In this document: piece after piece, positions 36,641-64,000 of the stretch
Layout of the letters: each line of letters starts with the position of its first letter
Position numbering within the stretch: position 1 is the first letter of the stretch
Origin: Micavibrio sp. UBA1850
GTDB lineage: Bacteria; Pseudomonadota; Alphaproteobacteria; Micavibrionales; Micavibrionaceae
DNA length: 64,000 bases
Reading direction: 5' to 3'
NCBI GenBank assembly: GCA_002338525.1
Contig: DDIM01000006.1
Coordinates: 15,315-79,314 of the forward strand
Translations under genes and position numbers: made by a program
Notes under the pieces: generated by a model
Seen by the model: only the letters and a program-made list of their open reading frames with translations
The model's database searches: none
Told to the model about the DNA's origin: nothing

Positions 36641-36976
<336 letters not shown>

Positions 36977-36982
36977 ATTTTA

Positions 36983-37341: not shown

Positions 37342-37408
37342 ATATAGAAAAGGTGCGAAGTCTGCGCCTATTTTTTCTGGGTTAATGAGATAAATTCAAA
37401 GGTTTTAC

Positions 37409-44045: not shown

Positions 44046-45120
44046 CCTCCTTGTTCCGTTATCGGATGAATATCAAATATTCAACCTGTTTCGTTATTTA
44101 ACGTTCAGAACAGGGGGCGGCATTATGACCGCGCTTGTTTTATCTTTCATTATAGGCCCTAAAATTATTCGGTGGCTAAAATCAAAACAAAAAGAAGGCC
44201 AGCCCATTCGCCAAAGCGGACCTGAAACGCATTTCAAAAAAGCCGGTACACCGACAATGGGCGGGCTGATGATTTTAATATCGGTCACTGTGTCGACGTT
44301 GTTATGGGCTGATTTATCTAATCAGTTCGTATGGTATGCTCTTGCTGTGATGGTTGGTTTTGGTCTCGTGGGCTTTGCTGATGATTATGCCAAGCTAACT
44401 AAAAAGTCATCTGACGGCGTGAGCGCGCGGACACGATTGATTGTTCAAATCCTGATCGTAGCAGGGGTGACGATAGGCATTAATCAGGTTTTGCCAGCAG
44501 ATATCAATACACATGTGGCCATTCCATTTTTTAAGGATCTCTACATTAATTTGGGGTGGGGCTTTGGGCTTTGGGCGCTGCTTGTTGTGATTGGGTCAGC
44601 CAATGCGGTTAATCTGACAGATGGGCTTGATGGTTTGGCTATTGTTCCTATCGCGATTGCATGCGCTAGTTTTGGTGTTATTACATACTTAGTCGGAAAT
44701 GCTGTATTTTCTGATTATTTACAGATTTCATATGTTGAGGGCACGGGTGAGCTTTCCGTTATATGTGGTGCCGTGGTGGGCGCAGCTCTAGGGTTTTTAT
44801 GGTACAACGCGCCCCCTGCACAAGTGTTTATGGGGGACACAGGATCGCTTGCAATGGGCGGACTTTTAGGAACGATTGCCCTTATTACCAAGCATGAACT
44901 TGTTTTGGCAATTATTGGAGGTTTGTTTGTCCTTGAAGCCCTTTCTGTTATCATTCAGGTGGCCTCGTTTAAATTAACGGGCAAGCGCGTGTTTCGAATG
45001 GCGCCCATTCATCACCATTTTGAAAAAAAGGGCTGGTCAGAGCCTACCGTCGTCATACGTTTTTGGATCATTGCGTGCGTGCTTGCATTAATTGGTCTTG
45101 CCACATTGAAATTAAGATAA
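44035..45120 (+). CDS. mraY: Phospho-N-acetylmuramoyl-pentapeptide transferase
   Basis: MLYNLL...[30 protein letters not shown] and [12 protein letters not shown]-type motifs. The ATG at 44035 overlaps the murF end. Confidence 0.96.
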
Positions 45121-45138
45121 GGGCATTTGATACCCCCA

Positions 45139-46278
45139 ATGAAGTTATTTGACCGATCAAGCAAGAACGTTGTTGCATCATGGTTTTGGACCGTTGATCG
45201 CACAATGTTGCTTTTGATCGCGGCCCTCATTGGGTATGGCATTGTATTGGTTGCCGCCGCAAGCCCAGCCGTTGCGTCTCGCATTGGTTTGTCAGAACAG
45301 CATTTCTTTTTAAAACATATTATCTTCTTAATCTTGTCTGTTTCGGGAATGATTTTTATCTCGTTCTTGTCACCTCGTGGGCTTTGGCGTGTTGCAATTC
45401 TTGTCATGGGTGCGGGCCTTGTTGCCATGATCCTTATACCGTTCATTGGTATGGAGATCAAAGGGGCGCAGCGTTGGATACATTTACCATTTATTTCGCT
45501 GCAACCCAGTGAATTGGTCAAACCGGCGCTTGCTATTATTGCGGCGCGTTTGATGGCTATGCAAAAGGAAAAAGAGGGGTTCCCCGGTGAAATATATGCC
45601 GCACTTCTTTATGCCTTTATTGTTATGTTGCTTATGGCGCAGCCTGATTTTGGAATGACATTTGTTGTCACCTGTATTGTGATGTCACAGATTTTCATGG
45701 CAGGTTTCCGTTTTAAATATCTCATTTACGTGGCCGTTGGAGGGGTTGTTGCATTGGTCTTGGTCTATAGCAGTTTTGATCACGTTCAAAGCCGCGTTGA
45801 CCGTTTCTTTGACCCCGCAAGCGGAAACACTTACCAAGTTGACAAATCCCTAGAATCATTCCGTCATGGAGGTGTGTTGGGAACGGGCCCTGGCCAAGGT
45901 ACCGTTAAATTGAACCTGCCGGATGCGCATGCTGATTTTATCTTTGCTGTGTCTGGTGAAGAATTGGGGCTGGTATTTACGCTTCCTCTTGTTGGATTAT
46001 ACTTGTTTTTATTGCTTCATGGTTTTCGGAAAATGGAAGAATCGGAAGATTTATTTGCGATTTTGGCGGTAGGCGGCTTGCTAACTATGGTCGGCGTACA
46101 GGCCTTTATCCACATGGGCTCTGCGCTGCACATCTTGCCAGCCAAGGGTATGACTCTCCCCTTTATTAGCTACGGGGGGACATCGCTTTTATCTGTTGGA
46201 TTTGCAATGGGGGCTGTGTTATCTCTTACAAGACATAAAACACGCACAGGTATCGTAAGCAAACGTGCCTCTCGCTAA
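45139..46278 (+). CDS. ftsW: Peptidoglycan glycosyltransferase FtsW (SEDS family)
   Basis: QPSELVKP, PDFG and LPAKGMTLPFISYGGTSLL motifs. It starts 19 nt after the mraY stop (a TTG alternative is at 45127). Confidence 0.9.
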   Translation: MKLFDRSSKNVVASWFWTVDRTMLLLIAALIGYGIVLVAAASPAVASRIGLSEQHFFLKHIIFLILSVSGMIFISFLSPRGLWRVAILVMGAGLVAMILIPFIGMEIKGAQRWIHLPFISLQPSELVKPALAIIAARLMAMQKEKEGFPGEIYAALLYAFIVMLLMAQPDFGMTFVVTCIVMSQIFMAGFRFKYLIYVAVGGVVALVLVYSSFDHVQSRVDRFFDPASGNTYQVDKSLESFRHGGVLGTGPGQGTVKLNLPDAHADFIFAVSGEELGLVFTLPLVGLYLFLLLHGFRKMEESEDLFAILAVGGLLTMVGVQAFIHMGSALHILPAKGMTLPFISYGGTSLLSVGFAMGAVLSLTRHKTRTGIVSKRASR

Positions 46279-46306
46279 TGTTATGAATTAAACAGGCGCT
46301 GATGAA

Positions 46307-47434
46307 ATGACAGACAACACACACATAGATCAAAAACAAATTAAAATACTTCTGTCCAGCGGTGGCACAGGGGGGCATGTTTACCCTGCAATCGCTTTGG
46401 CGCATGATTTAGTCTCGCGCGGATATCAGGTGCATTTTGCAACCGATAATCGTGGCGAAAAATACATTAAAGGTCATTTTGATTACACAATTTTACCTGC
46501 GGGCACATTAGGGGCTGGTGTTAAGGGCAAGGCTTTAGGGCTTATGAGTTTAGGGCGCGGATATATCAAGGCGCGTTCGTTAATTAATAAATACGCGCCC
46601 AATGCTGTTATTGGGTTTGGTGGCTACCCAAGTGTTCCGGCTGTGGCGGCGGCACAACATAAAAAAATTCCAACGATTTTACATGAACAAAATGCCGTGG
46701 TTGGTAAGGCAAACCTGTTTTTAGCGCCAAAAGCAGCCCGTATTGCGCTTTCATTGGAAGGTGGATTTGGCTTAGAGGCCGAAGACCGCGTTCGGAGTGT
46801 CGTGACAGGAAATCCTGTACGCCCGGAGATCGCAGCTCTTTACACAAAAGCTTATCCCACAATTCATGGCGATTCTAAAATCAACATTTTAATATTTGGG
46901 GGCTCATTAGGGGCCAGCGTATTAAGTCAAGTTGTACCAAAAACGATTGAGCGTTTAAGCGATAGCTACAAGGCGCGCCTTCATATTACGCAACAATGTA
47001 AAACCCAAGAAGAAGTAGATGAGACACAAAGCTTATATGATAAAAATAACGTAAGTGCAGAATGTACGACATTTTTACATGATATGCCTCAACATCTAGA
47101 TAAAGCACATTTTGTAATTTCACGTTCTGGCGCAAGCACAGTCGCAGAAGTAAGTGTTGCAGGGCGCCCTGCTATTTTCGTACCGTTGATGCTTCATGCC
47201 GACCAACAGCAATTGAAAAATGCTGAAAGCATCGCCAATAATGGTGGCGCATGGGTTATGCCAGAAACAGGCTTTACAATAGACGCACTGCAAACTCAAA
47301 TTGAGATGTTTTTGCAATCGCCAGAAACCTTATTCAAAGCAGCAGAAAAAGCGCGTGAATGCGCCCACCCTGACGCCTCTAGAAAGTTAGGAAATCTTGT
47401 CACCGCAGTGGCATTGGGGTGGTCGGATAACTAG
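46307..47434 (+). CDS. murG: UDP-N-acetylglucosamine--N-acetylmuramyl-(pentapeptide) pyrophosphoryl-undecaprenol GlcNAc transferase
   Basis: SSGGTGGHVYPA N-terminal G-loop, and HEQNAV and RSGASTVAE motifs. Confidence 0.95.
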   Translation: MTDNTHIDQKQIKILLSSGGTGGHVYPAIALAHDLVSRGYQVHFATDNRGEKYIKGHFDYTILPAGTLGAGVKGKALGLMSLGRGYIKARSLINKYAPNAVIGFGGYPSVPAVAAAQHKKIPTILHEQNAVVGKANLFLAPKAARIALSLEGGFGLEAEDRVRSVVTGNPVRPEIAALYTKAYPTIHGDSKINILIFGGSLGASVLSQVVPKTIERLSDSYKARLHITQQCKTQEEVDETQSLYDKNNVSAECTTFLHDMPQHLDKAHFVISRSGASTVAEVSVAGRPAIFVPLMLHADQQQLKNAESIANNGGAWVMPETGFTIDALQTQIEMFLQSPETLFKAAEKARECAHPDASRKLGNLVTAVALGWSDN

Positions 47435-47539
47435 GCACCAACATTCAGTGTCTACACGCTATTTTTCATAGACTTTTGAAGCTCTATATGGTTTGTTGAC
47501 CTACTTATTTAGACTTTTAAAAATACAAGCGAACAGCAT

Positions 47540-48952
47540 ATGCGTAAAATCCCCTTAGATATTGGTCCTTTGCACTTTGTAGGTATTGGAGGCATCGGTA
47601 TGAGTGGCATTGCCGAGATCCTCAACTCCATGAATTATGACGTGCAGGGCTCGGATATGAGCGAGAATGCAAACGTGAAAAGATTGCAGGATAAGGGAAT
47701 GACCGTCCATATTGGTCACAACGCTGATGTTATCACGGATGATATCGCAGCCGTCATTATCTCCTCTGCTGTTAAAGACGACAATGTCGAGCTTGTTGCG
47801 GCTCGCAAAAAACACATACCGATTGTCCGTCGTGCTGATATGCTGGCTGAGTTAATGCGTTTGAAGTGGGCTGTATCTGTTGGAGGAACACATGGAAAAA
47901 CGACCACAACCTCAATAGTTGGTGCTGTTTTAGAAGAAGGGCAACTTGATCCGACTGTCATCAATGGCGGTATTATCCACGCGTATGGTACAAACACGCG
48001 CCTCGGCGAAGGCCGTTGGATGGTTGTGGAATCTGATGAAAGTGATGGAACATTTACGCGATTGCCTTCAACGGTAGCCATTGTGACCAACATTGATCCA
48101 GAGCATATGGATCACTACGGGTCATTTGACGATGTTCGTGCTTCATACCGCCAATTCGTTGAGAATATCCCGTTTTACGGCTTTGGCGTTTTATGCTCAG
48201 ACCATCCTGAGGTTCAGGCGTTAATCGCACATGTCGGAGACAGAAAAATCGTAACTTACGGATTTAATCCGCAAGCTGACGTGCGCGCTATAAATGTTCG
48301 CTACGGACAAGATGGCAACACGTTCGATGTTAAAATTGGCGGCACTGACATCAAGGATATCTATTTACCTATGTTGGGAGACCACAACATCCAAAATGCG
48401 CTCGCCGCAATTACTGTTGCTGTTGAGCTGGAAATTCCTCATGCGGCAATCAAGAAAGCTTTGCGTCATTTCCAAGGGGTTAAGCGTCGCTTTACAAAAA
48501 CCGGGATCGTTAATGGTGTAACAATTGTTGATGATTATGGGCATCACCCCATTGAGATCAAGGCTGTCCTCAAGGCTGCAAGGCAATCGTTGGAGGATAC
48601 GGATAATAAGGTAATCGCTGTGATGCAACCGCATAGATATTCTCGATTGCATGAGCTAATGGATGATTTTTGTGCCTCGTTTAACCAAGCCGATACTGTA
48701 TATGTCTCTGATGTTTATGCCGCTGGCGAAAAACCAATTGACGGATCGGGCCATCATGAGTTGGTGAAGGGGATTGCGGCATTTGGACATAAAGATGTTC
48801 ACGTACTTGAGACGCCTGATAATTTGCCCTCTCTAATACATGAAAAGGCAAGTGCCGGAGATCTGGTGATATGTCTAGGGGCTGGTAATATCACACAATG
48901 GGCACAAGATCTTCCTGAGCAACTAAGACAATTTTCAAAAAAATCTGCTTAA
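47540..48952 (+). CDS. murC: UDP-N-acetylmuramate--L-alanine ligase
   Basis: [27 protein letters not shown] and DDYGHHP. Confidence 0.96.
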
Positions 48953-48981
48953 TAAAATAAAACAAAAATAATAAGAATAAA

Positions 48982-49944
48982 ATGATGCATATGCCGCAAT
49001 TTGGTGCTGAAGATAGATTAACAATCAATGACTTGCCTATGGTGCGAGGGCGCTATACTGAAAACGCGCCTCTTGGTGAGGTGGGGTGGTTTCGCACAGG
49101 CGGTCGCGCAGAAATTTTATATAAGCCCGCGGATAAGCAAGATTTGATCGATTTTCTCAAATCGTGTCCTAAGTCCATACCTGTACATGCAATTGGTGTG
49201 TTGTCTAACACGATTATTCGCGATGGCGGTCTAAGAGGTGTTGTTGTTCGTTTGGGGCGCGACTTTGCACATATTGATGATATGGGTGACCAGATTATAC
49301 ATGTGGGTGCAACAGCTCTTGACATGAATGTTGCGTTGAAGGCGGCACAATATGGAATAGGCGGTTTGGAATTCTTAAGTGGGATTCCTGGATGTATTGG
49401 CGGCGCACTAAAAATGAACGCAGGTGCCTACGGAACAGAGACGAAAGATGTGCTTGTTGAGGCGGAGTATGTGACGCGTGATGGCACGCTTGTCACCGCC
49501 ACAGCTGATGACTTGAATATGTCATATCGACACACTGACACGCCTGAGGGAGCCGTATTCTTAAGTGCTAAGCTTAAAGGGTTTCCTCAAGCAGAAGATG
49601 TGACGCAGGGCAAGATATCTGAGATCAAAGCCAAACGATCTGAATCGCAGCCGATCAAGGCTAAAACGGGGGGGTCGACATTTGCAAATCCAAGTGCAGA
49701 AGAGCTAAAATCAGTTGGTTTGCCAGAAGATATGCGTGTTTGGCAAATTATAGATGCCGTTGAGGGGCGAGGCCTAAGCATCGGTGGCGCGCAGATGTCC
49801 GAGCTTCATTGTAACTTCATGATTAATAATGGCGACGCCACATCACATGATCTCGAGCAGTTAGGCGATGAAATTAGGCATCGTGTGTTTAAAAAGTTTG
49901 GGTTACAATTACGGTGGGAAATACGCAGAGTCGGAGAAAAGTAA
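48982..49944 (+). CDS. murB: UDP-N-acetylenolpyruvoylglucosamine reductase
   Basis: FRTGGRAE, GIPGCIGGALKMNAGAYG and GGSTFANP. Confidence 0.93.
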   Translation: MMHMPQFGAEDRLTINDLPMVRGRYTENAPLGEVGWFRTGGRAEILYKPADKQDLIDFLKSCPKSIPVHAIGVLSNTIIRDGGLRGVVVRLGRDFAHIDDMGDQIIHVGATALDMNVALKAAQYGIGGLEFLSGIPGCIGGALKMNAGAYGTETKDVLVEAEYVTRDGTLVTATADDLNMSYRHTDTPEGAVFLSAKLKGFPQAEDVTQGKISEIKAKRSESQPIKAKTGGSTFANPSAEELKSVGLPEDMRVWQIIDAVEGRGLSIGGAQMSELHCNFMINNGDATSHDLEQLGDEIRHRVFKKFGLQLRWEIRRVGEK

Positions 49945-49947
49945 GCC

Positions 49948-50925
49948 ATGAACATGAAACATGATGTGCTTGATGTAGCGCTTTTGGTCGGGGGATGGTC
50001 GGCAGAACGTGCTGTATCGCTTGAAAAAGGAAAAACCGTAGAGGTCGCACTCATTGAGCTAGGCCATAATGTTCGGGTCATTGATGTTCAAAAAGATTTA
50101 CCATCCCTTATTCAGTCACTAACGCCTAAGCCGGATGTTGTGTTCAATAACCTTCATGGTACAGGTGGGGAAGATGGCGTCATTCAAGGTGTGTTAGAAA
50201 TGCTTGATATACCATACACGCACTCGGATGTGTGCGCCTCGGCGATTGCCATGGATAAACCGCGTACAAAAATTCTGGTTGAAACGGTCGGTGTGCCTAC
50301 GCCTAAAGGTGTTGTGCTTACAAAAAATCAAATTGTAAATGGTCAAATCCCTTACGCCCCCCCTTATGTTATAAAACCCCCTCATGAGGGCTCTAGTGTG
50401 GGTGTTCACATGATTCGCGCACAAGACAACCGCCCCATCAATATTGGTTTGGATATTGAAGATCATGACCTGCTATTGGTTGAAGAATATATCGCAGGAC
50501 GCGAGTTGACGGTAGCGGTGCTGGATGGCAAGGCGCAGGCTGTTACAGAAATTGTCTCTCATACAGAATTCTTTGATTATGAAGCAAAATACCAAGATCA
50601 AACGACAGAATATGTTCTTCCTGCAAAAATTTCATCAGACATATACGATTTAGCCTTGGATTATGCTGAGCGCGTGTATAATATTGTAGGATGTGCTGGT
50701 TTGGCGCGTTGTGATTTTCGTTTTGATGAAAGCTTGGGCACAGAAGGCCTCTTTCTTTTGGAAATCAACACACAGCCAGGCTTTACGGCGCAATCAATCG
50801 GCCCCTCTCAGGTCATCTACAACGGAACATCATTTAATGCGCTTTGTGAGCGTCTCATCGAAACTGCTTTATGCCCAAAAAACGAAAACAAAATAGTAAA
50901 ATTCTCAAAAAGAAAAGTCGCCTAA
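49948..50925 (+). CDS. ddl: D-alanine--D-alanine ligase
   Basis: GGWSAERAVSL, HGTGGEDG, KP..EGSSVG and LEINTQPG. Confidence 0.95.
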   Translation: MNMKHDVLDVALLVGGWSAERAVSLEKGKTVEVALIELGHNVRVIDVQKDLPSLIQSLTPKPDVVFNNLHGTGGEDGVIQGVLEMLDIPYTHSDVCASAIAMDKPRTKILVETVGVPTPKGVVLTKNQIVNGQIPYAPPYVIKPPHEGSSVGVHMIRAQDNRPINIGLDIEDHDLLLVEEYIAGRELTVAVLDGKAQAVTEIVSHTEFFDYEAKYQDQTTEYVLPAKISSDIYDLALDYAERVYNIVGCAGLARCDFRFDESLGTEGLFLLEINTQPGFTAQSIGPSQVIYNGTSFNALCERLIETALCPKNENKIVKFSKRKVA

Positions 50926-51761
50926 CGCGTGATGCCTTTATTAAGGTCGCGCGCCGTACAGGGATTATCGTTTGCGCGCTTGCCGCACTATTGTGGGTGG
51001 GGGCATGGGTATGGTTTGGCGGCCTTATTCAGCAAGGCGCTTCATGGACTGAGCAAAAAATATACGCAGTCACTGCGGATGCAGGCTTTCAACTCGATAA
51101 TCTATTGGTTGAGGGGCGTGAAAATCTATCGGCTGATACCGTCATGCAGATTTTGGACATAGAGCAAGGGCAATCTTTGTTTGCAGCAGACTTAGAGGAT
51201 GTCCGCATGCGCCTTGAGGCGCTTGAGTGGGTTGAAACAGTTGTTGTTCAGCGCCGCGCGCCTAATGATTTGTATATTAAAATTACAGAGCGCCAGCCCA
51301 TTGCACTGTGGAAACGCGCTGGACAAAATAACCTTTTCTTAATTGATCACAAAGGCCACGTCATTGATGTGCCGTTATTGTCAAAGTTCAAAGATCTTAT
51401 AATCATCTCGGGCGAAGGTGGGCGCGATGAGGCGTTTTCTTTGATATCTCAATTAGCCATCTACCCCGAGATTTTATCAAATGTTGATGTGGCACAGTTC
51501 ATAAGTGATCGTCGTTGGGATTTTGTCACCAAGGCAGGCATTCGCATTCAAATGCCCGAAGACAATTTTGATTATGCGTTGGGTCGTCTTGAACAGTTGC
51601 GTATTCAATCCGAAATATTGGCACAGCCCATAGATTTGTTGGATTTGAGACAAGAAGATCGCGTTGTAGCACGCCCAAGCGAGGGGCATGTTTTAGAGTA
51701 TGATTACATTGCGCCTGTTAGCACAAAAGCAGGTGAGGGAGCGTCAGGCTATGAGCTTTAA
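50871..51761 (+). CDS. ftsQ: Cell division protein FtsQ
   Basis: Basic N terminus, a single TM helix, POTRA-like ...VVVQRRAPNDLYIKITERQPIALW, and position. It overlaps the ddl end by 55 nt, and there is no later in-frame start before the TM helix. Confidence 0.85.
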   Translation: MPKKRKQNSKILKKKSRLTRDAFIKVARRTGIIVCALAALLWVGAWVWFGGLIQQGASWTEQKIYAVTADAGFQLDNLLVEGRENLSADTVMQILDIEQGQSLFAADLEDVRMRLEALEWVETVVVQRRAPNDLYIKITERQPIALWKRAGQNNLFLIDHKGHVIDVPLLSKFKDLIIISGEGGRDEAFSLISQLAIYPEILSNVDVAQFISDRRWDFVTKAGIRIQMPEDNFDYALGRLEQLRIQSEILAQPIDLLDLRQEDRVVARPSEGHVLEYDYIAPVSTKAGEGASGYEL

Positions 51762-53022
51762 ACAACCATTAAAAGCAGGGTCTATTATTGCCACTCTTGA
51801 TGTCGGCTCAAGCAAAGTTTCGTGCTTCATTGCGCAAATGACAGATGATAACGGCGGGTTTGAAATTGTAGGCGTGGGTCACCAAGCGGCACAAGGCGTT
51901 AAAAACGGGATCATTACAGATATATACCAAGCGGAAATAGCAATTTCTAATGCGGTTCATGTTGCTGAAAAGATGGCCTCAAAAATCATAAAAGGATATC
52001 CCTTGCGTGATATCGTGCTGGCTGTGCCTGCTACATCATCATCATCACATTACATGGATGCGCATGTTCAGATGATGCGCCAGACTGTGACGGAAAATGA
52101 TGTGCGACGCGCGCTTGCAAAGGCGCAAATCAAGGCACAAAAAGATGATCGGGAAATTGTACACACCATTCCTGTCGATTATGTACTGGATGGACATAAA
52201 GGCATTCAAAGTCCTTATGGCATGAGCGGTCAGGTCATGGATATTGACATTCATATGCTGGACGCGGATTTTTCACACCTCAAGCATATCAGCCAATGTA
52301 CTGAACAAAATCATCTGGATATTGTCTCCCTTTGTTCTGCTCCATATGCGGCGGGGCTGGCCATGTTGGTCGAAGATGAGATCGAGCTAGGCTCAATCGT
52401 AATTGATATGGGCGCAAATATTACCTCATATGCCGTCTTCCAATCGGGGCGATTGTTGTATGCTGGCGCAGTGCCAGTCGGCGGGCATCACATTACATCT
52501 GATATCGCACATGGCCTCACAGCCACGCTTGCAGATGCCGAGCGTATAAAAACACTTTATGGAAGTGCATTGGCGACAATTAGCGATGAGCATGAATATA
52601 TAGATGTACCCATGATGGGGGAGCAATCAGGCAAGGGTGAGCAGCAGGTTACGCGCGCGCTCCTCATAAACATTATACAAGCCCGCCTTGAAGAAACGTT
52701 CGAGATGGTAAGGCAAGGACTTGCCGATTCAGGCGTAGAAGCGGCGCAATGCCGACGCGTCGTCCTGACAGGTGGGGGGAGCCTTATGCCAAACGTGCAA
52801 GATTTAGCGCAACGAATTTTAAGTAAGCAAGTGCGATGCTCTCAAACATTGAAGGTCAAGGGCTTACCAGATGCAACAAGCGGGCCTGGTTTTGCCGTGT
52901 CTATGGGCTTGATTAAATACTACTCCGAGCGGCCTCACGAGATGCCAATGGAGATTGCCTCTTATGCTGATTCTCGCTCGGTTGTTGAAAAATTCAAAAG
53001 CTGGTTTAAAGAAAACTGGTAG
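51751..53022 (+). CDS. ftsA: Cell division protein FtsA
   Basis: ATLDVGSSKVSCFIA, VIDMGANITS and VLTGGGSLMP actin-fold motifs. The ATG at 51751 overlaps the ftsQ stop. Confidence 0.93.
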   Translation: MSFKQPLKAGSIIATLDVGSSKVSCFIAQMTDDNGGFEIVGVGHQAAQGVKNGIITDIYQAEIAISNAVHVAEKMASKIIKGYPLRDIVLAVPATSSSSHYMDAHVQMMRQTVTENDVRRALAKAQIKAQKDDREIVHTIPVDYVLDGHKGIQSPYGMSGQVMDIDIHMLDADFSHLKHISQCTEQNHLDIVSLCSAPYAAGLAMLVEDEIELGSIVIDMGANITSYAVFQSGRLLYAGAVPVGGHHITSDIAHGLTATLADAERIKTLYGSALATISDEHEYIDVPMMGEQSGKGEQQVTRALLINIIQARLEETFEMVRQGLADSGVEAAQCRRVVLTGGGSLMPNVQDLAQRILSKQVRCSQTLKVKGLPDATSGPGFAVSMGLIKYYSERPHEMPMEIASYADSRSVVEKFKSWFKENW

Positions 53023-53057
53023 GTCTATACCTTTCCTAAATGCGGATACTTCTTGAT

Positions 53058-53094
53058 TGTGGATAAAACTGATCTATTTATACACTTATCCACA
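53058..53094. promoter_or_regulatory. Two perfect consensus DnaA boxes in inverted orientation (TGTGGATAA-N19-TTATCCACA) in the ftsA-ftsZ intergenic region
   Basis: TGTGGATAA at 53058-53066 and TTATCCACA at 53086-53094. Confidence 0.55.
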
Positions 53095-53149
53095 GGCTCT
53101 GTTCTGAGCCAGGATTTCGTTGACGAAAGGTTTGAAGGCAGAAAAAAAT

Positions 53150-53175
53150 GAATCGCGAGAATCGGTTACGGACTC
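53150..53175. promoter_or_regulatory. Cluster of three GANTC (CcrM-type methylation) sites upstream of ftsZ
   Basis: GAATC at 53150-53154, GAATC at 53159-53163 and GACTC at 53171-53175, all within 26 bp. Confidence 0.4.
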
Positions 53176-53351
53176 TCTTTGATGTATTTGTTCAGATGTA
53201 GCTAAGGCTTGTTATTCATTTTTTTGTTAATTGTCTGGAAAACGTGCTTTTTTATTAGGTTATTTGCGCATACCCTAAATAAATAGAGCGAATCACTTTC
53301 GTTCATATTTGCTTTAAATGACTATATAATTATCCAGCTCTGGAGGTTTAA

Positions 53352-55136
53352 ATGATTAATGTTCGTCCAACACAACCCACTCAAAGACAAAGCCTGAGTC
53401 CCAAGATTACGATCTTTGGTGTCGGCGGAGCTGGGGGTAACGCTGTGAATAACATGATCGAAGAAAATCTCGCAGGTGTTGAGTTCGTCGTTTGTAACAC
53501 AGACGCACAAGCACTAGAGCAAAGCGCATGTAACACAAAAATTCAACTTGGAGCAAATGTAACAGCTGGACTAGGTGCAGGCGCAAAGCCAGAAATTGGA
53601 CGTATGGCAGCCGAAGAATCTTTGGACGAGGTTTTGGCGCACATTGAAGACACGAATATGGTGTTTGTAACCGCTGGTATGGGCGGCGGAACAGGAACCG
53701 GCGCAGCGCCAACGATTGCTAAAGCATGCCGTGAGCGCGATGTATTGACAGTCGGTGTTGTGACAAAACCTTTCCACTTCGAAGGAACGCTTCGTATGAA
53801 GATGGCCGAAGAGGGAATTAAGGAAATGCAAGAATACGTAGATACGTTGATTGTTATTCCAAACCAAAACTTATTCCGTATCGCAAACGAAAAGACAACA
53901 TTTGCTGAAGCCTTTAAGATGGCCGACAGCGTGTTACAATCTGGCGTGCGCGGCGTAACAGACCTAATTGTAAACCCTGGTTTGATCAACCTAGACTTTG
54001 CTGACATTCGCTCAATTATGCTTGAGATGGGTAAAGCGGTAATGGGTACAGGTGAGGCAACATCTGATAAACGTGCCATCGAAGCCGCTGAAAAAGCCAT
54101 CAGCAACCCACTTCTGGATGATATGTCTATGAAGGGTGCGAAGGGTGTTATCATTAACGTTACTGGTGGTTCAGACATGACACTGTTTGAAGCAGATGAA
54201 GCATGTAACCGTATACGTGATGAAGTTGATCCAGACGCAAATATCATCTTTGGAACATCTTTTGACGAGACAATGGACGGCGCAATGCGTGTATCTATTG
54301 TCGCAACAGGAATTGATAAAGAAACGACACGTAAGACAAAGCCATTTTCAACAGGTGGAGGCCTTGAAAGAGCGCGTCCGATTACAACAGGCACTGCAAA
54401 CACAACGTCTCGCGGCACAGCAACAGCAGGTTCTGGATTTGGGAGCGTTTCGGCATCACAAGCATCAGTAAATAGTTCTTCAAGATCAATGGGCACGTCA
54501 CAAAGTTCTTCTGGTCTAGGTTCGTCTCAACAGTCTTCTGAAGAGACAAGTGAGTCTGTTCAAACTGACCTTGTACAGCAATTAGAAGAACAAAAAATTG
54601 AGGTCACTGAACCTCGTCGTGGCACAACACACGGTGAATCATTTATTCCACCAAAAGCCGCACAGCCTGAGGAGTTTGCAGATAGTGTAAGTTATGCCTC
54701 TGGTACAACTACAGGGTCATATGCGACGCATCAGTCACGTCAAGTGAACATGCAGCAGCAACCAACAACGGCCTCTACAAGCCCTTCAATTTCAATGACA
54801 ACGCAGCAGCAGATGCAACAGCCTCGTGGAACAACACCCTCTTTGAACTTGCAACCGCCAGTTCCTGGTTCGAACAAGGTTAAAAAACCACAAAGCTTGT
54901 TTGACCGTATCAAAAACGTAGGCTGGGGCTCAGACGAAACAGACGATCTTTCAACAACACAAGAAACAGAGTCTAACAACGGCGAGACGCAAACAACAAG
55001 CGGCGGCCTAGGTTTAAAAGCACCACAAAGACCGTCTTCATCAGGACAGCTTAACGTTGCAAGCTCAAACCCTTCAAAAGGTAACTTTGAAGATGAGCTA
55101 GACATCCCGGCTTTCCTTCGTCGCGAAGCCAACTAA
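53352..55136 (+). CDS. ftsZ: Cell division GTPase FtsZ with long S/T/Q-rich linker
   Basis: [13 protein letters not shown] and [12 protein letters not shown] tubulin signatures, a ~240-aa low-complexity linker, and the C-terminal peptide [11 protein letters not shown]. Confidence 0.98.
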
Positions 55137-55166
55137 GGTTGCTAATTAAAAATTAGGTTTAAAGGA

Positions 55167-55193
55167 ACAGCTCGTTTTTGAGCTGTTTTTTTT
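55167..55193 (+). terminator. Rho-independent terminator after ftsZ
   Basis: ACAGCTC-GTTTTT-GAGCTGT perfect 7-bp stem followed by T8. Confidence 0.7.
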
Positions 55194-55231
55194 AGGCTGT
55201 TTTTTTGTGGCGTGAAAAATGATTTATTAAT

Positions 55232-60373: not shown

Positions 60374-61480
60374 TTATGCTTTTTTGTCAGTCGCTTTTAC
60401 TGGCTGATCATTATCTTCGACCGCATCAGGCCCGACAAGCATGGCATCGGCGACAAGTCCTGCATTCGCACGAATTTGTCCCTCTAGCTTTGCAAATTTG
60501 TCTGGGTTATCAAGAAGATACTGTTTCGAGTTCTCGCGCCCTTGGCCCATACGCTCTCCATCATAGGAGAACCACGCACCAGATTTCTCGACAAAGTTTC
60601 CTTGAACTCCAAGGTCAAGCATTTCACCTGTTTTTGAAATCCCTTTACCATACATGATGTCGAATTCAATTTGACGGAATGGAGGCGCCATCTTGTTTTT
60701 AACAACCTTCACACGCGTTTGGTTTCCAACCACCTCGTCTTTGTCTTTAATTTGTCCAATACGACGAATATCAAGACGAACAGATGAGTAGAACTTCAAC
60801 GCATTTCCACCTGTAGTTGTCTCAGGAGATCCAAACATAACACCAATTTTCATACGAATTTGGTTAATGAAAATCACAACTGTTTTTGATTTAGAGATAG
60901 ACCCTGTTAATTTACGAAGGGCTTGTGACATAAGGCGGGCTTGTAGTCCCACATGCGTGTCGCCCATCTCGCCTTCAAGTTCTGCCTTCGGTACAAGAGC
61001 GGCCACAGAGTCGACAACCAAGACATCCAACGCGCCAGAGCGCACAAGTGTATCGGCAATTTCAAGAGCCTGCTCACCAGCGTCAGGCTGTGAGATTAGA
61101 AGGTTTTCAACATCAACGCCAAGCTTTGAAGCATATCCAGGGTCAAGGGCGTGTTCCGCATCAACGATGGCACATGTGCCACCTTTTTTCTGCGCCTCTG
61201 CAATGACGTGCAAGGCCAATGTTGTTTTACCAGAACTTTCAGGGCCATAAATTTCAGTAATACGTCCGCATGGAAGCCCCCCGATACCAAGGCCGATGTC
61301 AAGACCAAGAGAGCCCGTTGAAACCGAGGCAATCTCTATGTTATTGTTTTCGCCGCTCAATTTCATGATCGATCCTTTACCAAAGGCGCGTTCAATTTGG
61401 GTGAGGGCTGCGTCTAGCGCTTTTTGTTTGTCATTTGACATTGGTAATGTGTCTCCAGTGTTCTTTTTTAATGCTGTCAT
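60374..61480 (-). CDS. recA: Recombinase RecA
   Basis: [31 protein letters not shown] and [15 protein letters not shown] lies upstream of ATG 61480, and an alternative ATG is at 61441. Confidence 0.98.
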
Positions 61481-61600: not shown

Positions 61601-61615
61601 GAACAAAAAATGAAC
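61601..61615. promoter_or_regulatory. Alphaproteobacterial LexA (SOS) box GAAC-N7-GAAC upstream of recA
   Basis: GAACaaaaaatGAAC (GTTC-N7-GTTC on the recA strand), ~120 nt upstream of the recA start. Confidence 0.5.
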
Positions 61616-61632: not shown

Positions 61633-63879
61633 TTATCCCATAGAAAGAACCTTGGCAGATGGCGCGGCTTCATATCGTTCATCAGAACTGCTAAAGAGGT
61701 CTAATTCAATATTTTCTAATCCATGCCTAGACAGAATTGTTTTAAGTCTGTTGAGTGCTTCAACTTGAATTTGGCGCACGCGCTCTCTGGTAAGAGACAT
61801 TTCTTCTCCGACTTCTTCCAATGTTTGCGGGTCTTGCCCTAACATGCCAAAGCGGCGAATTATGACGTCTTTCTGTTTAGGCTTGAGCTCGTCTATAATG
61901 CTCAACATCTTTTCTTCTAAATCACTGGTCTCTTCCTTTAAAGCAGGGTCATTGTCAGGCGTATCAGCGATGATATCTGCCATAGTACCGCCCCCTTCTT
62001 CAGTGATGGGCGTATCCATAGAGGCGTAGTGTCTATCGTGCTCGAAAGTTTTTTCAATATCTTTAACAGAAATGCCTAATTCTGCTGCAATATCATCGTG
62101 AGTGGCCGCGCGACCAAAACTTTTGGTGAGTTCTTTTTCTGTTCTGCGATACAAACTCAAATCTTTAAGAACGTGAATGGGCACGCGAACATCCCTTGTT
62201 TGGTTCATGATGGCACGTTCTATTGTTTGTCGTATCCACCATGTTGCATATGTCGAAAATCTGTTGCCCGTTTCTGGGTCAAATTTTTCAACCGCTGTCA
62301 TCATGCCTATATTACCTTCTTGGATCAAATCTAGCGGTGCTAGCCCACGGTTTTGATACTTTTGGGAGATTTTTAAAACAAGACGAACATTAGATTCTGC
62401 AAGACGTTTGGCAGACTCCTCACAGCCTGCCTGAACCTTACGCGCAAGGGCTGCTTCTTCTTCTCTAGTAAGCAAAGGAGCGGCCCTATTAACGTCTCGT
62501 GCATACGCGCTAGACGCATCAAGCCCCGTGTCTGCTTGGGTGGATTGGATTTGTCTGCCGGGCCCCTCATTTATTTTTAACCCCTTAAGGTCTGCTCCGG
62601 ATTTATCTGAAGGCCGTCTTAATCCAACAAATTCTTTGACGGTATCATAGACGCCATCAGTATCGCCAGTAACAGACAGAAGTACGCTTAATGCTTCTGA
62701 TTTATATTTGGTAACTGTTTGTACTGAAATACGAGTTTGCTCGGAAATCTTGGCATTTGTTAAGGCGTCTTCAATACCGATCCCCATAGATAGCCCTAAA
62801 ACGTTTCTATGCTTAGGCGGTAGGTTATCAAGCCACTTTTGAATAATTCCTCGATTTTTATCATCTGATAAAAGCTGCGTAAAACTCTCTACAACAGAAT
62901 TTGTTGCGTTTTTAAAAGATTGAGAGGCGCCTGTTTTACTCTTTTCTTGTGGTTGTTTTTGCTCTTCACCGGTCTCTGGTTTTACGACAGGTATTGTCGG
63001 TGTTGTCGGTTTTTTTGCCGTTGGTCTTTCTGATGCAGTCGGTGCTGGCGCCTCAGGTGCTGCAAAATCATCACTTTTATTAATTTTTAGATGTGTGAAA
63101 TCAAACTGATTCTTTTTCTCTTCGCTCATACGACTATATTTTCTAAGCGCCAGAAGAAGAGGGTGCTTTTCTCCTATTTCAGCTTCAAGAATATCAAAGG
63201 CTTGCTTTTTACGATTATGGATCGTCGCAGATCCTACGTCTAACTCTTCACAGATTTCACTATGCGTATATGGCGCGTCCTCGACCCCCATCAAAAGGGC
63301 CATAACCGTTTGACTTTTTGAAGGCATGTTATCAAGCCAAAGCTGTAAAATCTGGTTATGGGCATCGTTTTCGAAAACAGCTTTTAATTCGTGTGAAGCA
63401 TCATTTTTATCATTATTTGCGGTTGTCTGTATGCTTACTGGCTTATCTACTGATAAGACAGGCTTATCTGAGGCTTTTATATTTTGGATGGGCAAGGTGT
63501 TTTTAGTCTGTTCAGCCTCGGCTGCTTTCAAAAATTTCAAATCTATCAGGTCTCTTTTTTCTAGACCCGCACGAGACAGTTCCAAAACGGTATCATATAA
63601 GACAGGTGTTGAGGTATCGGACTTTGTTGCGCGTGTGTGCAAGGCATCAAAAGCTTTCTTCTTATGGTTGCTAACTGTTGCAACCGATACATGCAAGGCT
63701 TGGGCAATGGCATCGATCTCTTGTGCTTTCATACCGATACCAAGCGCTCTTTCTAATACCCTTTTTGTTTTAGGCTCTAGCGCATAAAACCAGTTTTGTA
63801 GGACGGGCTTATTTTCGTCGGATAAAAGAATATTTTGAAGAAGAGCAGCCTTTTCTTGCATTTTTTCTTCTAGTGACAT
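61633..63879 (-). CDS. Sigma-70 family RNA polymerase sigma factor: compact RpoD/RpoS-like core preceded by three tandem region-4-like HTH modules
   Basis: The C-terminal 293 aa carry regions 1.2-4.2 (DLIQEGNIGMMTAVEKFDPETGNRFSTYATWWIRQ; TLEEVGEEMSLTRERVRQIQVEALNRL). The N-terminal ~455 aa contain three similar modules (see findings). The frame stays open to the window edge, so the N terminus is provisional. Confidence 0.8.
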   Translation of the reverse strand: MSLEEKMQEKAALLQNILLSDENKPVLQNWFYALEPKTKRVLERALGIGMKAQEIDAIAQALHVSVATVSNHKKKAFDALHTRATKSDTSTPVLYDTVLELSRAGLEKRDLIDLKFLKAAEAEQTKNTLPIQNIKASDKPVLSVDKPVSIQTTANNDKNDASHELKAVFENDAHNQILQLWLDNMPSKSQTVMALLMGVEDAPYTHSEICEELDVGSATIHNRKKQAFDILEAEIGEKHPLLLALRKYSRMSEEKKNQFDFTHLKINKSDDFAAPEAPAPTASERPTAKKPTTPTIPVVKPETGEEQKQPQEKSKTGASQSFKNATNSVVESFTQLLSDDKNRGIIQKWLDNLPPKHRNVLGLSMGIGIEDALTNAKISEQTRISVQTVTKYKSEALSVLLSVTGDTDGVYDTVKEFVGLRRPSDKSGADLKGLKINEGPGRQIQSTQADTGLDASSAYARDVNRAAPLLTREEEAALARKVQAGCEESAKRLAESNVRLVLKISQKYQNRGLAPLDLIQEGNIGMMTAVEKFDPETGNRFSTYATWWIRQTIERAIMNQTRDVRVPIHVLKDLSLYRRTEKELTKSFGRAATHDDIAAELGISVKDIEKTFEHDRHYASMDTPITEEGGGTMADIIADTPDNDPALKEETSDLEEKMLSIIDELKPKQKDVIIRRFGMLGQDPQTLEEVGEEMSLTRERVRQIQVEALNRLKTILSRHGLENIELDLFSSSDERYEAAPSAKVLSMG

Positions 63880-64000
63880 TTGTCCCTTTGGATTATATGA
63901 AGCGGTTGAGCTTGTTGTTTTCCATGCGCGGTGTAATCCTGTATTTTTAGGCTCAATGGCAATGGGGCTGACATTTTGGTGAGGGGTATAGTGGTCATCA

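What the first reader, a model, noticed from the sequence alone, without database searches (positions are those of the whole stretch)
61633..63879. Sigma factor with three tandem N-terminal region-4-like HTH modules
The last 293 residues are a complete, compact sigma-70 core. It has region 1.2 AYARDVNRAAPLLTREEE, region 2 DLIQEGNIGMMTAVEKFDP..FSTYATWWIRQ, region 3 VRVPIHV and region 4.2 TLEEVGEEMSLTRERVRQIQVEALNRL, with no non-conserved insert. In front of it are ~455 residues made of three similar ~110-130-aa modules. Each module has the pattern (I/V)LQxW(L/F)xx(L/M)(P/E)PK-x-(R/Q)xV(L/M)…(I/V)(S/G)xxT(V/I)xxxK(K/S)xA(F/L)xxL, for example PVLQNWFYALEPKTKRVLERALGIG…HVSVATVSNHKKKAFDAL, NQILQLWLDNMPSKSQTVMALLMGV…DVGSATIHNRKKQAFDIL and GIIQKWLDNLPPKHRNVLGLSMGIG…RISVQTVTKYKSEALSVL. 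Each ends with D(L/F)xxLK(I/F)(N/L). These look like extra copies of sigma region 4 / LuxR-type HTH. I know of no described sigma-70 with a triplicated region-4-like N terminus in place of region 1.1. It could act as a built-in anti-sigma mimic, an extra DNA-binding array, or a docking platform.
Basis: partly seen in the sequence, partly recalled or inferred. Interest (0 to 1): 0.75.

Follow-up and report, generated by a model that had tools for sequence, protein, structure and literature searches.

The report
RpoS-type sigma with N-terminal sigma4-copy array
A marine alphaproteobacterium encodes an RpoS-like transcription initiation factor whose front end carries three clear copies, and probably a fourth decayed one, of its own promoter-binding tail domain; almost nothing like it exists in public sequence data, and its function is still unknown.

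Summary
The frame stays open to base 64000, and the real protein is 970 aa, seen intact in at least 20 independent metagenome contigs.

The last 293 aa are a compact RpoS-type sigma core, 51% identical to E. coli RpoS. This is unusual for an alphaproteobacterium. The gene sits as a roughly 3 kb insertion inside an otherwise conserved histidine-kinase–recA pair.

Upstream lie three clear modules of about 105 aa and one degenerate module, separated by disordered linkers. Each module is a diverged copy of RpoS region 4 plus its C-terminal tail. This rests on Pfam, a PDB profile search, and AF2 with Foldseek (1.3–2.0 Å to genuine sigma4). The -35-reading residues are replaced by a motif specific to this family. 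The modules evolve under purifying selection (20 synonymous vs 6 nonsynonymous changes); the linkers do not.

Exhaustive searches found only three other proteins with such modules, two of them fused to different sigma cores. The predicted fifth helix lies roughly where the RNAP beta-flap-tip helix sits in engineered sigma4–flap chimeras.

The mechanism is inferred, not shown. The modules may be extra self-capped HTH units that bind DNA, or in-cis sigma4 decoys. I rate it a new variant of a known kind.

The parts
61633..64000 (-). Sigma gene. The window holds codons 183-970 plus the stop. The 5' end (182 codons, including most of degenerate module M0) lies beyond the window.
   Evidence: ORF listing. 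The frame is open to the window end. The 970-aa record is P0001. The intact gene with a Shine-Dalgarno is seen in L084-L089.
63511..63819 (-). Module M1 (P0001 aa 243-345): a sigma4-like HTH plus a fifth helix and the DLKFLK end motif.
   Evidence: Foreign-module HMM 51.1 bits. Pfam Sigma70_r4 18.9 bits. BLASTP to M3 E 6e-13.
63367..63510 (-). Linker 1 (aa 346-393), low complexity.
   Evidence: Coil with pLDDT <50 in the full-length model. 0 synonymous vs 4 nonsynonymous codon differences against L084.
63055..63366 (-). Module M2 (aa 394-497), acidic (net -5).
   Evidence: Foreign-module HMM 40.2 bits. Pfam Sigma70_r4 21.7 bits. Charge. 4 synonymous vs 0 nonsynonymous differences.
62863..63054 (-). 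Linker 2 (aa 498-561), rich in P, T, K, E and Q.
   Evidence: 77% of residues are P/S/T/A/Q/K/E. 4 synonymous vs 10 nonsynonymous differences. Coil in the model.
62551..62862 (-). Module M3 (aa 562-665), tethered about 18 aa upstream of region 1.2.
   Evidence: AF2 pLDDT 81, pTM 0.75, five helices. All Foldseek top hits are sigma region 4 or sigma4-flap-tip chimeras. Foreign-module HMM 38.4 bits.
61636..62514 (-). RpoS-type sigma core (aa 678-970). Region 1.2 is at 62425-62505, region 2 at 62194-62403, region 3 at 61942-62157, region 4 at 61741-61896 and the C-terminal tail at 61636-61725.
   Evidence: Pfam domains. NCBIfam RpoS 369.6 bits against a cut-off of 394. PDB RpoS 269.6 bits vs E. 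coli RpoD 170 bits. 51% identity to E. coli RpoS.
61601..61615 (-). GTTC-N7-GTTC, a motif like the alphaproteobacterial LexA (SOS) box, in the sigma-recA spacer about 120 nt upstream of recA. It suggests recA has its own promoter. It belongs to the context, not to the sigma gene.
   Evidence: Pattern search. The count is not above chance for the whole window (2 found, 1.7 expected); only the position is suggestive.
60374..61480 (-). recA, the downstream neighbour. In relatives it is directly preceded by the hybrid histidine kinase, which here lies upstream of the sigma gene.
   Evidence: ORF. RecA loci. Synteny.

Best explanation
Shown: this is a lineage-restricted, RpoS-type (group 2) alternative sigma factor of an uncultured marine alphaproteobacterium. 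Its gene was inserted between a conserved hybrid histidine-kinase gene and recA. In front of a normal core (regions 1.2 to 4) it carries about 677 aa built as beads on a string: three well-preserved copies and one decayed copy of an RpoS-like C-terminal domain (region 4.1, the region 4.2 HTH, and the RpoS tail), separated by disordered linkers. The copies keep the sigma4 fold and hydrophobic core. They have exchanged the -35-reading residues (R584/E585/R586/R588/Q589 in sigma70 numbering) for a family-specific recognition-helix motif, T-phi-x-N-(Y/H/R)-(R/K)-K-x-A.

Inferred mechanism: the fifth helix, which corresponds to the RpoS tail, folds back into the groove that normally receives the RNAP beta-flap-tip helix. 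Each module would then be a self-capped, RNAP-independent HTH unit. The array would act in cis as extra DNA-binding modules with a specificity different from -35. These would give the holoenzyme additional contacts around the promoter, or tether free sigma to DNA. This could supplement the typically weak -35 recognition of RpoS-type promoters.
For: Architecture and reality of the gene:
- The intact gene occurs in at least 20 contigs from at least 6 samples, plus a TARA fragment.
- It has a Shine-Dalgarno and ATG.
- Modules show 20 synonymous vs 6 nonsynonymous codon differences; linkers show 9 vs 15.

Sigma4 origin of the modules:
- Sigma70_r4 is the best Pfam hit for every module.
- The module profile hits RpoS region 4 first in PDB sequences, at E 1e-4 over profile positions 2-80, including the WLxELxxKQRxV motif and the tail.
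- The alignment with RpoS sigma4 runs end to end.
- The AF2 model has pLDDT 81 and superposes on genuine sigma4 at 1.3-2.0 Å over 57-66 residues.

Self-capping:
- The best Foldseek hits are engineered sigma4-beta-flap-tip-helix chimeras (7kug_B, 6ido_A, 7kuf_B, 8cyf_B). They align over 81-92 columns, the whole chimera, at 3.4-5.5 Å.
- Helix 5 has a phi-phi-x-(A/T)-phi pattern like LLRAI of the flap tip. The flap-tip sequence is recalled from my own knowledge.

DNA binding:
- The recognition-helix motif is conserved across proteins below 30% identity.
- M1, M3 and the P0006/P0007 modules have net charges of 0 to +3, similar to the genuine sigma4 at +1.

Generic function with different sigma cores:
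- Homologous arrays are fused to a divergent RpoS-like core (P0007) and to a FliA-like core (P0006).
Against: - No DNA-binding test was possible, and no candidate target motif was identified.
- M0 and M2 are acidic (-7 and -5).
- One homologous module (P0008 aa ~53-150) lacks the recognition helix altogether. Not all modules can therefore bind DNA, and the helix 1-2 and helix 5 parts seem to have their own conserved role.
- The position of helix 5 is inferred only from Foldseek alignment lengths and rmsd, because no coordinates were available.
- The model rests on an 8-sequence alignment.
- AF2 tends to place any amphipathic helix in an exposed groove.
- The full-length model was uninformative (pLDDT 46.8, pTM 0.23).
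- M3 is tethered only about 18 aa from region 1.2, which limits where it can reach on promoter DNA.
Confidence: 0.38

Rival explanations
1. In-cis sigma4 decoy or autoregulatory array. The modules do not bind DNA. Instead they mimic sigma4 towards proteins that normally dock on it, such as the beta-flap tip, an anti-sigma factor or sigma4-contacting activators. Alternatively, their flap-tip-like fifth helices sequester the genuine sigma4. Either way, sigma activity would be buffered or gated, in a manner analogous to PhyR-type sigma mimicry or to region 1.1 autoinhibition.
For: - The modules are copies of RpoS sigma4 plus its tail.
- The most conserved stretch is the 4.1-like phi-Q-x-W-L-x-x-L-x-P-K-x-R helix pair, not the HTH.
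- One homologous module has lost its recognition helix but keeps the rest.
- M0 and M2 are acidic.
- The -35 residues are lost.
- Sigma mimicry is an established principle in Alphaproteobacteria: PhyR/NepR/EcfG (PMC8103513).
- The array sits at the position of region 1.1, with M3 about 18 aa before region 1.2.
Against: - No anti-sigma or partner gene is conserved next to any of the four genes.
- The same modules accompany RpoS-like and FliA-like cores, whose known partners differ.
- The recognition-helix surface motif is conserved, which a pure decoy of another sigma4 would not need.
- If helix 5 caps the flap groove, the modules could not bind the flap.
- No docking onto the core was predicted.
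Confidence: 0.27
2. Multivalent scaffold. Folded modules joined by long disordered linkers self-associate or cluster RNAP and sigma, for example by swapping helix 5 or the phi-x-phi-K-phi end motif between modules. This would form assemblies or condensates that store or concentrate the sigma factor.
For: - Folded modules alternate with 48-64-aa low-complexity linkers.
- A short strand-like motif is conserved at the end of every module (DLKFLK, HLKINK, GLKINE, NIEIAD, TIKIVD). It has no partner within a single module: it is coil in the M3 model.
- Module number changes quickly. P0006 has two copies that are 100% identical in DNA.
Against: This is purely architectural reasoning. No strands or inter-module contacts appeared in the full-length model. 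It does not explain the conserved recognition-helix motif.
Confidence: 0.1
3. Evolutionary relic. Internal duplications of region 4 are decaying and have no function of their own. The protein works as a plain RpoS-like sigma with a long inert N-terminal tail.
For: M0 is degenerate, at 3.7 bits, which is within the shuffle range. The family is extremely rare. The full array is dispensable in nearly all sigma factors.
Against: - The modules are under purifying selection (20 synonymous vs 6 nonsynonymous) while the linkers are not (9 vs 15).
- The modules are recognisably conserved between proteins whose cores share only 25-34% identity.
- There are no stops or frameshifts across 2 kb in at least 20 contigs.
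Confidence: 0.06
4. Artefact: a mis-assembled or frameshift-fused upstream gene, or a wrong start codon.
For: The window itself shows only an ATG at 63879 with open frame upstream, which could suggest uncertainty about the start.
Against: - The same 970-aa ORF occurs in at least 20 independently assembled contigs.
- A 183-aa TARA fragment covers the N-terminus.
- There is a Shine-Dalgarno and ATG after a 140-nt AT-rich spacer.
- Substitutions in the modules are codon-aware.
- The modules are homologous to each other and to those of other sigma proteins.
Confidence: 0.01

Closest known systems
RpoS (sigma-S/sigma-38), group 2 sigma-70-family factor of Gamma-, Beta- and Deltaproteobacteria
   Same: The core (aa 678-970) has regions 1.2, 2, 3 and 4 with no non-conserved insert and is 51% identical to E. 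coli RpoS with essentially no gaps. The region 4.2 recognition helix LTRERVRQIQVEAL is nearly identical (E. coli has G for the A), and the K of the K173 position and the RpoS-type C-terminal tail are present.
   Different: - It falls just below both NCBIfam RpoS equivalog cut-offs (369.6 vs 394; 355.6 vs 378.7).
- The host is an alphaproteobacterium, a class reported to lack RpoS (PMC8103513).
- It has a 677-aa N-terminal array instead of the roughly 50-aa RpoS N-terminus.
- It is not next to nlpD but inserted between a kinase gene and recA.
Engineered sigma4-beta-flap-tip-helix chimeras used for crystallography (e.g. 6ido sigmaS sigma4-FTH, 3t72 PhoB-sigma70(4)-FTH, 7kug/7kuf/8cyf sigmaA(4)-FTH)
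   Same: These are the best structural matches of the module model over their whole length: sigma4 body, linker, then one extra helix.
   Different: The modules are natural. Their extra helix derives from the RpoS tail, not from RpoB. Whether it really occupies the flap groove was not verified with coordinates.
PhyR sigma-factor mimicry (EcfG/NepR/PhyR) of Alphaproteobacteria
   Same: A sigma-derived domain is used for something other than promoter recognition by the holoenzyme, in the same bacterial class (PMC8103513).
   Different: PhyR has an ECF-like sigma2+sigma4 domain fused to a receiver domain and is not itself a sigma factor. Here the domains are only sigma4-like, repeated, fused in cis to a functional-looking sigma, and there is no receiver domain.
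ECF sigma factors with regulatory N- or C-terminal extensions (e.g. ECF41/42; planctomycetal N-terminal extensions)
   Same: A sigma factor carries an on-board extension presumed to regulate it, with no adjacent anti-sigma gene (PMC8103513).
   Different: Those are group 4 sigmas whose extensions are not sigma4 copies. Here a group 2 core carries tandem sigma4-derived modules.
Region 1.1 of primary sigma factors
   Same: It has the same topological position, N-terminal and a short tether before region 1.2.
   Different: Region 1.1 is a single, strongly acidic small helical domain. The modules are five-helix sigma4-like HTH domains, with net charge +3 for the one next to region 1.2. There was no Sigma70_r1_1 hit.
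MzaA, the sigma-70-family factor of the MZA anti-phage system (long N-terminal extension)
   Same: It is a long sigma-70-family protein. The core matches at 242 bits (NCBIfam) and 140 bits (PADLOC).
   Different: The match covers the sigma core only. It is far below the cut-off of 800, and there are no Mza partner genes nearby.

Membership tests
Sigma-70 family, group 2 (RpoS-like) | Regions 1.2, 2, 3 and 4 present in order | tested here: met
   Pfam r1_2 27.9, r2 68.5 and r3 57.4 bits, with the best r4 stretch at window-ORF aa 662-713. All are above their gathering scores.
Sigma-70 family, group 2 (RpoS-like) | No region 1.1 and no non-conserved insert between regions 1.2 and 2 | tested here: met
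   There was no Sigma70_r1_1 or Sigma70_ner hit. The alignment to E. coli RpoS runs over 259 aa with a single 1-residue gap.
RpoS (NCBIfam equivalogs NF004207 / TIGR02394) | Score at or above the curated equivalog cut-off | tested here: not met
   369.6 against 394, and 355.6 against 378.7. RpoS is the best family by a wide margin, but the score is just under the cut-off.
RpoS | Closer to RpoS than to primary sigma factors | tested here: met
   PDB sequences: RpoS 261-270 bits, SigA/RpoD 154-203 bits.
RpoS | Stationary-phase or general-stress role; RssB/ClpXP control | not testable with these tools
   No expression data are available, and the rest of the genome could not be reached.
Sigma region 4 domain (Pfam Sigma70_r4), applied to the N-terminal modules | Profile score at or above the gathering score for each module on its own | tested here: not met
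   18.9, 21.7 and 20.7 bits against 24.1. Sigma70_r4 is nevertheless the top family for all three.
Sigma region 4 domain, applied to the N-terminal modules | Sigma4 fold (a region 4.1 helix pair plus the region 4.2 HTH) | tested here: met
   The AF2 model of M3 has pLDDT 81. Foldseek gives rmsd 1.3-2.0 Å and TM (target) 0.79-0.85 to sigma4 of SigA, sigmaE and SigF, at probability 1.00. Foldseek E-values are only 0.03-0.5 because the domain is small.
Sigma region 4 domain, applied to the N-terminal modules | -35-contacting residues of region 4.2 (R584, E585, R586, R588, Q589 in sigma70 numbering, from my own knowledge) | tested here: not met
   These positions are V/S/V, A/A/Q, T/T/T, S/H/T and N/N/K in M1/M2/M3. 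The core's own region 4 keeps TRERVRQIQ.
LuxR/GerE HTH | Pfam GerE at or above the gathering score | tested here: not met
   16.2 and 14.3 bits for single modules against 23.5, always below the Sigma70_r4 score.
PhyR-type sigma mimic | ECF-like sigma2+sigma4 domain fused to a receiver domain | tested here: not met
   There is no Response_reg hit and no second Sigma70_r2 hit in the protein.
MzaA (MZA defence system sigma) | NCBIfam NF041931 cut-off of 800 bits, with full-length coverage | tested here: not met
   242 bits, covering core positions only. PADLOC gives 140 bits over the core only.
New module family (sigma4+tail repeat array fused to sigma cores: P0001, P0006, P0007, P0008) | A unit of about 105 aa, phi-Q-x-W-L-x-x-L-x-P-K-x-R ... 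G-phi ... I ... T-phi-x-N-x-(R/K)-K-x-A-phi-x-x-L ... L-Y-x-x-phi ... phi-x-phi-K-phi, in two or more tandem copies | tested here: met
   Alignments A1. phmmer E 4e-15, 1e-8 and 5e-7 to the three relatives. The foreign-only HMM detects M1-M3 at 38-51 bits.

The most novel reading that the evidence does not exclude
The array is a set of interchangeable or competing sigma4 domains acting in cis. When the capping fifth helix is released, an N-terminal module could dock on the RNAP beta-flap in place of the canonical region 4, giving one sigma polypeptide several alternative upstream-element specificities. That would be a built-in version of phage T4 AsiA/MotA 'sigma appropriation'. Conversely, the flap-tip-like helices could sequester the genuine sigma4, so that the factor carries its own anti-sigma. 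Either would be a previously undescribed way of programming or gating a sigma factor. It would also be portable between sigma classes, because the same modules occur on RpoS-like and FliA-like cores.
Probability: 0.1. Interest if true: 0.9.

Novelty: new variant of a known kind. Interest (0 to 1): 0.62.

Why it matters
Sigma factors are among the best-studied bacterial regulators, and their domain order (1.1)-1.2-2-3-4 is treated as fixed. A factor that carries three or four extra, selectively maintained copies of its promoter-binding domain (region 4 plus tail) at the opposite end would be a new regulatory layout.

If the copies bind DNA, this sigma brings its own 'activator' modules. That may explain how an RpoS-type factor can find promoters with poor -35 elements. 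If they are decoys, it would be sigma mimicry built into the sigma itself.

The predicted self-capping by a flap-tip-like helix also raises a testable idea about the unexplained C-terminal tail of ordinary RpoS.

It is also a clear case of an RpoS-like gene in an alphaproteobacterium, a class usually described as lacking RpoS.

The family is very rare: four protein clusters among about 15 billion sequences. Its importance is therefore mechanistic rather than ecological.

Tried and rejected
- Word-indexed homology search with the 457-aa N-terminal part: no hit.
- The same search with the module profile A1: no hit.
- GTDB genome scan with the N-terminal 679 aa: no relative.
Two JGI metagenome scans with sub-alignments A2 and A3 found no relatives.
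- Two viral-contig scans gave a single hit, L090. It is a 51-aa chance match (ENKPHVEAWLN) inside a 1412-aa phage protein with no sigma4-like context, and I rejected it.
- The look-up of encoding contigs on P0001 itself found nothing on record. Its 97%-identical variant P0010 worked.
- The full-length AF2 model built from a 10-row alignment was too poor to judge docking of modules on the core (pLDDT 46.8, pTM 0.23). Model coordinates are not exposed, so the position of helix 5 could not be measured directly.
- A functional link to the upstream hybrid histidine kinase is rejected as specific evidence. The kinase-recA adjacency is ancestral in Alphaproteobacteria (40 of 80 loci), and the sigma gene is the insertion.
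- Membership in the MzaA defence sigma family is rejected.
- There is no DNA-level repeat between the window's modules, so the duplications are old.
- No second sigma gene occurs in the 64-kb window. The presence of rpoD elsewhere in the genome could not be checked.
- Literature searches for a described sigma with an N-terminal region-4 array, or for GCA_024279035/JAJRSA, found nothing relevant.
Full report
**1. What is in the sequence**

The minus-strand ORF ending at 61633 has its first in-window ATG at 63879, giving 748 aa. The frame contains no stop up to the last window base. The protein on record for this locus, P0001, has 970 aa and is 100% identical over the 748 aa.

A 97%-identical variant, P0010, differs at 25 residues. 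It is encoded as an intact 970-aa gene on at least 20 independently assembled metagenome contigs from at least six samples, the longest 887 kb. A 183-aa TARA Oceans surface-water fragment covers the N-terminus. In locus L084 the ATG follows an AGGAGA Shine-Dalgarno and a 140-nt AT-rich spacer.

The gene is therefore real. The window simply cuts off its first 182 codons. No other sigma gene lies in the window.

**2. The core**

Residues 678-970 give Pfam hits to Sigma70 r1.2, r2, r3 and r4, all above threshold. The best NCBIfam models are the two RpoS equivalogs: 369.6 bits against a cut-off of 394, and 355.6 against 378.7. These are far ahead of the RpoD models at about 247 bits.

Against PDB sequences, RpoS chains score 261-270 bits and E. 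coli RpoD scores 170. Identity to E. coli RpoS is 51% over 259 aa with one 1-residue gap: 68% in regions 1.2-2, 29% in region 3 and 51% in region 4. There is no region 1.1 and no non-conserved insert. Its own region 4.2 keeps LTRERVRQIQ.

**3. The host and the locus**

RecA, the next gene downstream at 60374-61480, is at most 81% identical to any of 600 or more genome hits. All 80 best hits are Alphaproteobacteria, led by a Micavibrio-like MAG, Micavibrio sp., Algihabitans and Pelagibius. A review states that Alphaproteobacteria harbour no RpoS homologue (PMC8103513).

None of the 80 alphaproteobacterial recA loci has a sigma gene within 6 kb. In 40 of them, a homologue of the PAS-HisKA-HATPase-REC hybrid kinase lies directly upstream of recA. 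One example is Micavibrio sp. L005, at 52% identity, ending about 210 nt before recA. In the present organism that kinase lies upstream of the sigma gene instead.

The sigma gene is thus a lineage-specific insertion of about 3 kb into an ancestral kinase-recA pair. The kinase adjacency carries no specific functional message.

**4. The modules**

In P0001 numbering, M1 is 243-345, M2 is 394-497 and M3 is 562-665. They match each other at BLASTP E 8e-11 to 4e-13 over 104-110 aa, at 26-33% identity. A further copy, M0 (~81-190, outside the window), matches M2 at E 8e-5.

An HMM built only from modules of other proteins finds M1, M2 and M3 at 51, 40 and 38 bits. It finds the core's own region 4 at 9.2 bits and M0 at only 3.7 bits. 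The best of 300 shuffles scored 5.1. M0 is therefore a degenerate copy.

There is no DNA-level repeat in the window, so the duplications are old. Between the window and L084, codon differences are 20 synonymous vs 6 nonsynonymous in the modules, 9 vs 15 in the linkers, and 1 vs 0 in the core. The modules, but not the linkers, are under purifying selection.

The linkers of 48-64 aa are rich in P, S, T, A, Q, K and E, and come out as low-confidence coil.

**5. What the modules are**

Every module's best Pfam family is Sigma70_r4, at 18.9-21.7 bits. This is just under the gathering score. GerE/LuxR is weaker. PHROGs gives a phage 'RNA polymerase sigma factor' family at 67 bits.

A profile of eight modules (A1) searched against PDB sequences hits RpoS region 4 first: 7f0r_F at E 1e-4, then 7vf9, 6fi7, 6ido and 5ipl. 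RpoD, SigF and LuxR-type regulators follow further down. The alignment covers the RpoS-typical WLxELxxKQRxV helix pair, the HTH, and the RpoS C-terminal tail: GLNIEALF aligns with the modules' LYDTV, LYEAV and LADAL.

AF2 on M3 with alignment A1 gives pLDDT 81 and pTM 0.75, with five helices. Foldseek against the PDB returns sigma region 4 almost exclusively. Plain sigma4 domains superpose at 1.3-2.0 Å over 57-66 residues. The very best hits are engineered sigma4-beta-flap-tip-helix chimeras (7kug_B, 6ido_A, 7kuf_B, 8cyf_B, 3t72_o), aligned over their full 81-92 columns at 3.4-5.5 Å.

From these numbers I estimate that the extra roughly 18 residues lie about 6 Å rms from the flap-tip helix position.

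The -35-contacting residues of region 4.2 are replaced (V/S/V, A/A/Q, T, S/H/T, N/N/K). A motif specific to this family, T-phi-x-N-(Y/H/R)-(R/K)-K-x-A, is conserved instead.

Net charges are M0 -7, M1 +1, M2 -5 and M3 +3, compared with +1 for the genuine region 4.

**6. Distribution**

The N-terminal 455 aa were compared by phmmer with 1.84 billion representative proteins. Only three hits appeared.

- P0006 (1114 aa): two modules identical even at the DNA level with 534-nt spacing, plus a partial third, in front of a FliA-like core.
- P0007 (863 aa, from MAG GCA_024279035.1): two modules in front of a divergent RpoS-like core with an insert in region 2.
- P0008 (282 aa): two modules only, one lacking the recognition helix. 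Its contig ends 69 nt after a stop that follows an A-run, so its completeness is uncertain.

P0006 and P0007 also share an unrelated N-terminal region of about 300 aa. The P0001 core is closer to E. coli RpoS (51%) than to the P0007 core (34%) or the P0006 core (25% over 111 aa). The module array therefore travels between different sigma cores.

Word-indexed searches, a GTDB genome scan, two JGI metagenome scans and two viral scans added no members. No gene context is shared among the four loci.

**7. Interpretation**

The following is shown. This is a real, selectively maintained RpoS-type sigma carrying an N-terminal array of diverged copies of RpoS region 4 plus tail. The array belongs to a tiny family in which it is fused to different sigma cores.

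The mechanism is inferred. My preferred reading (confidence about 0.38) is that each module is a self-capped sigma4-derived HTH. Its flap-binding groove would be filled by its own tail helix, so it folds and acts independently of RNAP. The array would then provide extra DNA contacts of a non-(-35) specificity.

The main rival (about 0.27) is in-cis sigma4 mimicry or autoinhibition. It is favoured by the acidic M0 and M2, by a homologous module without a recognition helix, and by the strongest conservation lying in the 4.1-like helices. A multivalent-scaffold role (about 0.1), a functionless relic (about 0.06) and an artefact (about 0.01) are less likely.

The full-length AF2 model was too poor to discriminate between these (pLDDT 46.8, pTM 0.23).

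**8. Comparison and novelty**

The core works like RpoS and very nearly qualifies as RpoS, but it misses the curated equivalog cut-offs and sits in an unexpected class. The modules have the sigma4 fold but fail the per-module Pfam threshold and lack the -35 residues.

The protein is not PhyR-like (no receiver domain, no sigma2 copy). The array is not region 1.1 (wrong fold and charge). The protein is not MzaA (242 of 800 bits). I found no paper describing a sigma factor with an N-terminal array of region-4 copies.

I rate it a new variant of a known kind, with interest 0.62. The architecture is surprising and offers testable mechanistic ideas, but it is very rare and the function is unproven.

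Noticed in passing
window 61601-61615 (- strand): GTTCATTTTTTGTTC, a perfect GTTC-N7-GTTC motif like the alphaproteobacterial LexA/SOS box, lies in the sigma-recA spacer about 120 nt upstream of the recA start. Window-wide the count is not above chance (2 found, 1.7 expected), but the position is the canonical one. No intrinsic terminator was detected after the sigma gene on its own strand.
   Followed up: partly
window 61636-62514 vs 62515-64000, compared with L084: Synonymous divergence between the two strain variants is very uneven. There is 1 difference in the 879-nt core, against about 55 in the 1,489 nt coding for the N-terminal array. This suggests a recent recombination or sweep over the core, or unusually strong constraint on it.
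   Followed up: no
L001 1637-1936 and 2171-2470 (P0006 gene): Two module-coding stretches of 300 nt are 100% identical with 534-nt spacing, and a third partial copy follows. This is either a very recent tandem duplication of a module plus linker unit or an assembly collapse or expansion.
   Followed up: partly
P0006 aa ~40-300 and P0007 aa ~45-290 (L001, L002): The two relatives share an additional N-terminal region of about 250-300 aa, made of two similar halves (RFLVPYHLVADRI... / RFLVSYNVVSDVL...). It has no Pfam hit and is absent from the window's protein.
   Followed up: no
L003 2440-2511: The modules-only protein P0008 ends at a TAA just after an A-run. Another frame stays open to the contig end, 69 nt later (TKPEVLQNLRKKHQKHLKKYGKE). 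The stand-alone status of this protein may therefore be a frameshift or truncation artefact.
   Followed up: partly
window 36642-36979 (+) and about 37400-55200: There is a bacterial class A RNase P RNA (328.7 bits), followed by a run of same-strand ORFs ending in a 594-aa ORF at 53352-55136. In L084 the corresponding genes are annotated FtsQ/FtsA/FtsZ, so this is probably the dcw cell-division and cell-wall cluster. It is ordinary housekeeping context.
   Followed up: no
L084 1-3446 and 3548-7252 (upstream of the window's end): Flagellar export genes (fliQ/fliR/flhB-type Bac_export_1/2/3) and an unusually long 1234-aa RNB-domain (RNase II/R family) protein lie upstream of the hybrid kinase.
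   Followed up: no
core region 4.1, P0001 aa ~866-880 (window ~61906-61950): The core's own region 4.1 reads MLSIIDELKPKQKDV and lacks the tryptophan of the RpoS-typical (K/Q)WLxEL motif. All the modules retain that tryptophan. The modules seem to preserve an older RpoS-like state than the core at this position.
   Followed up: no
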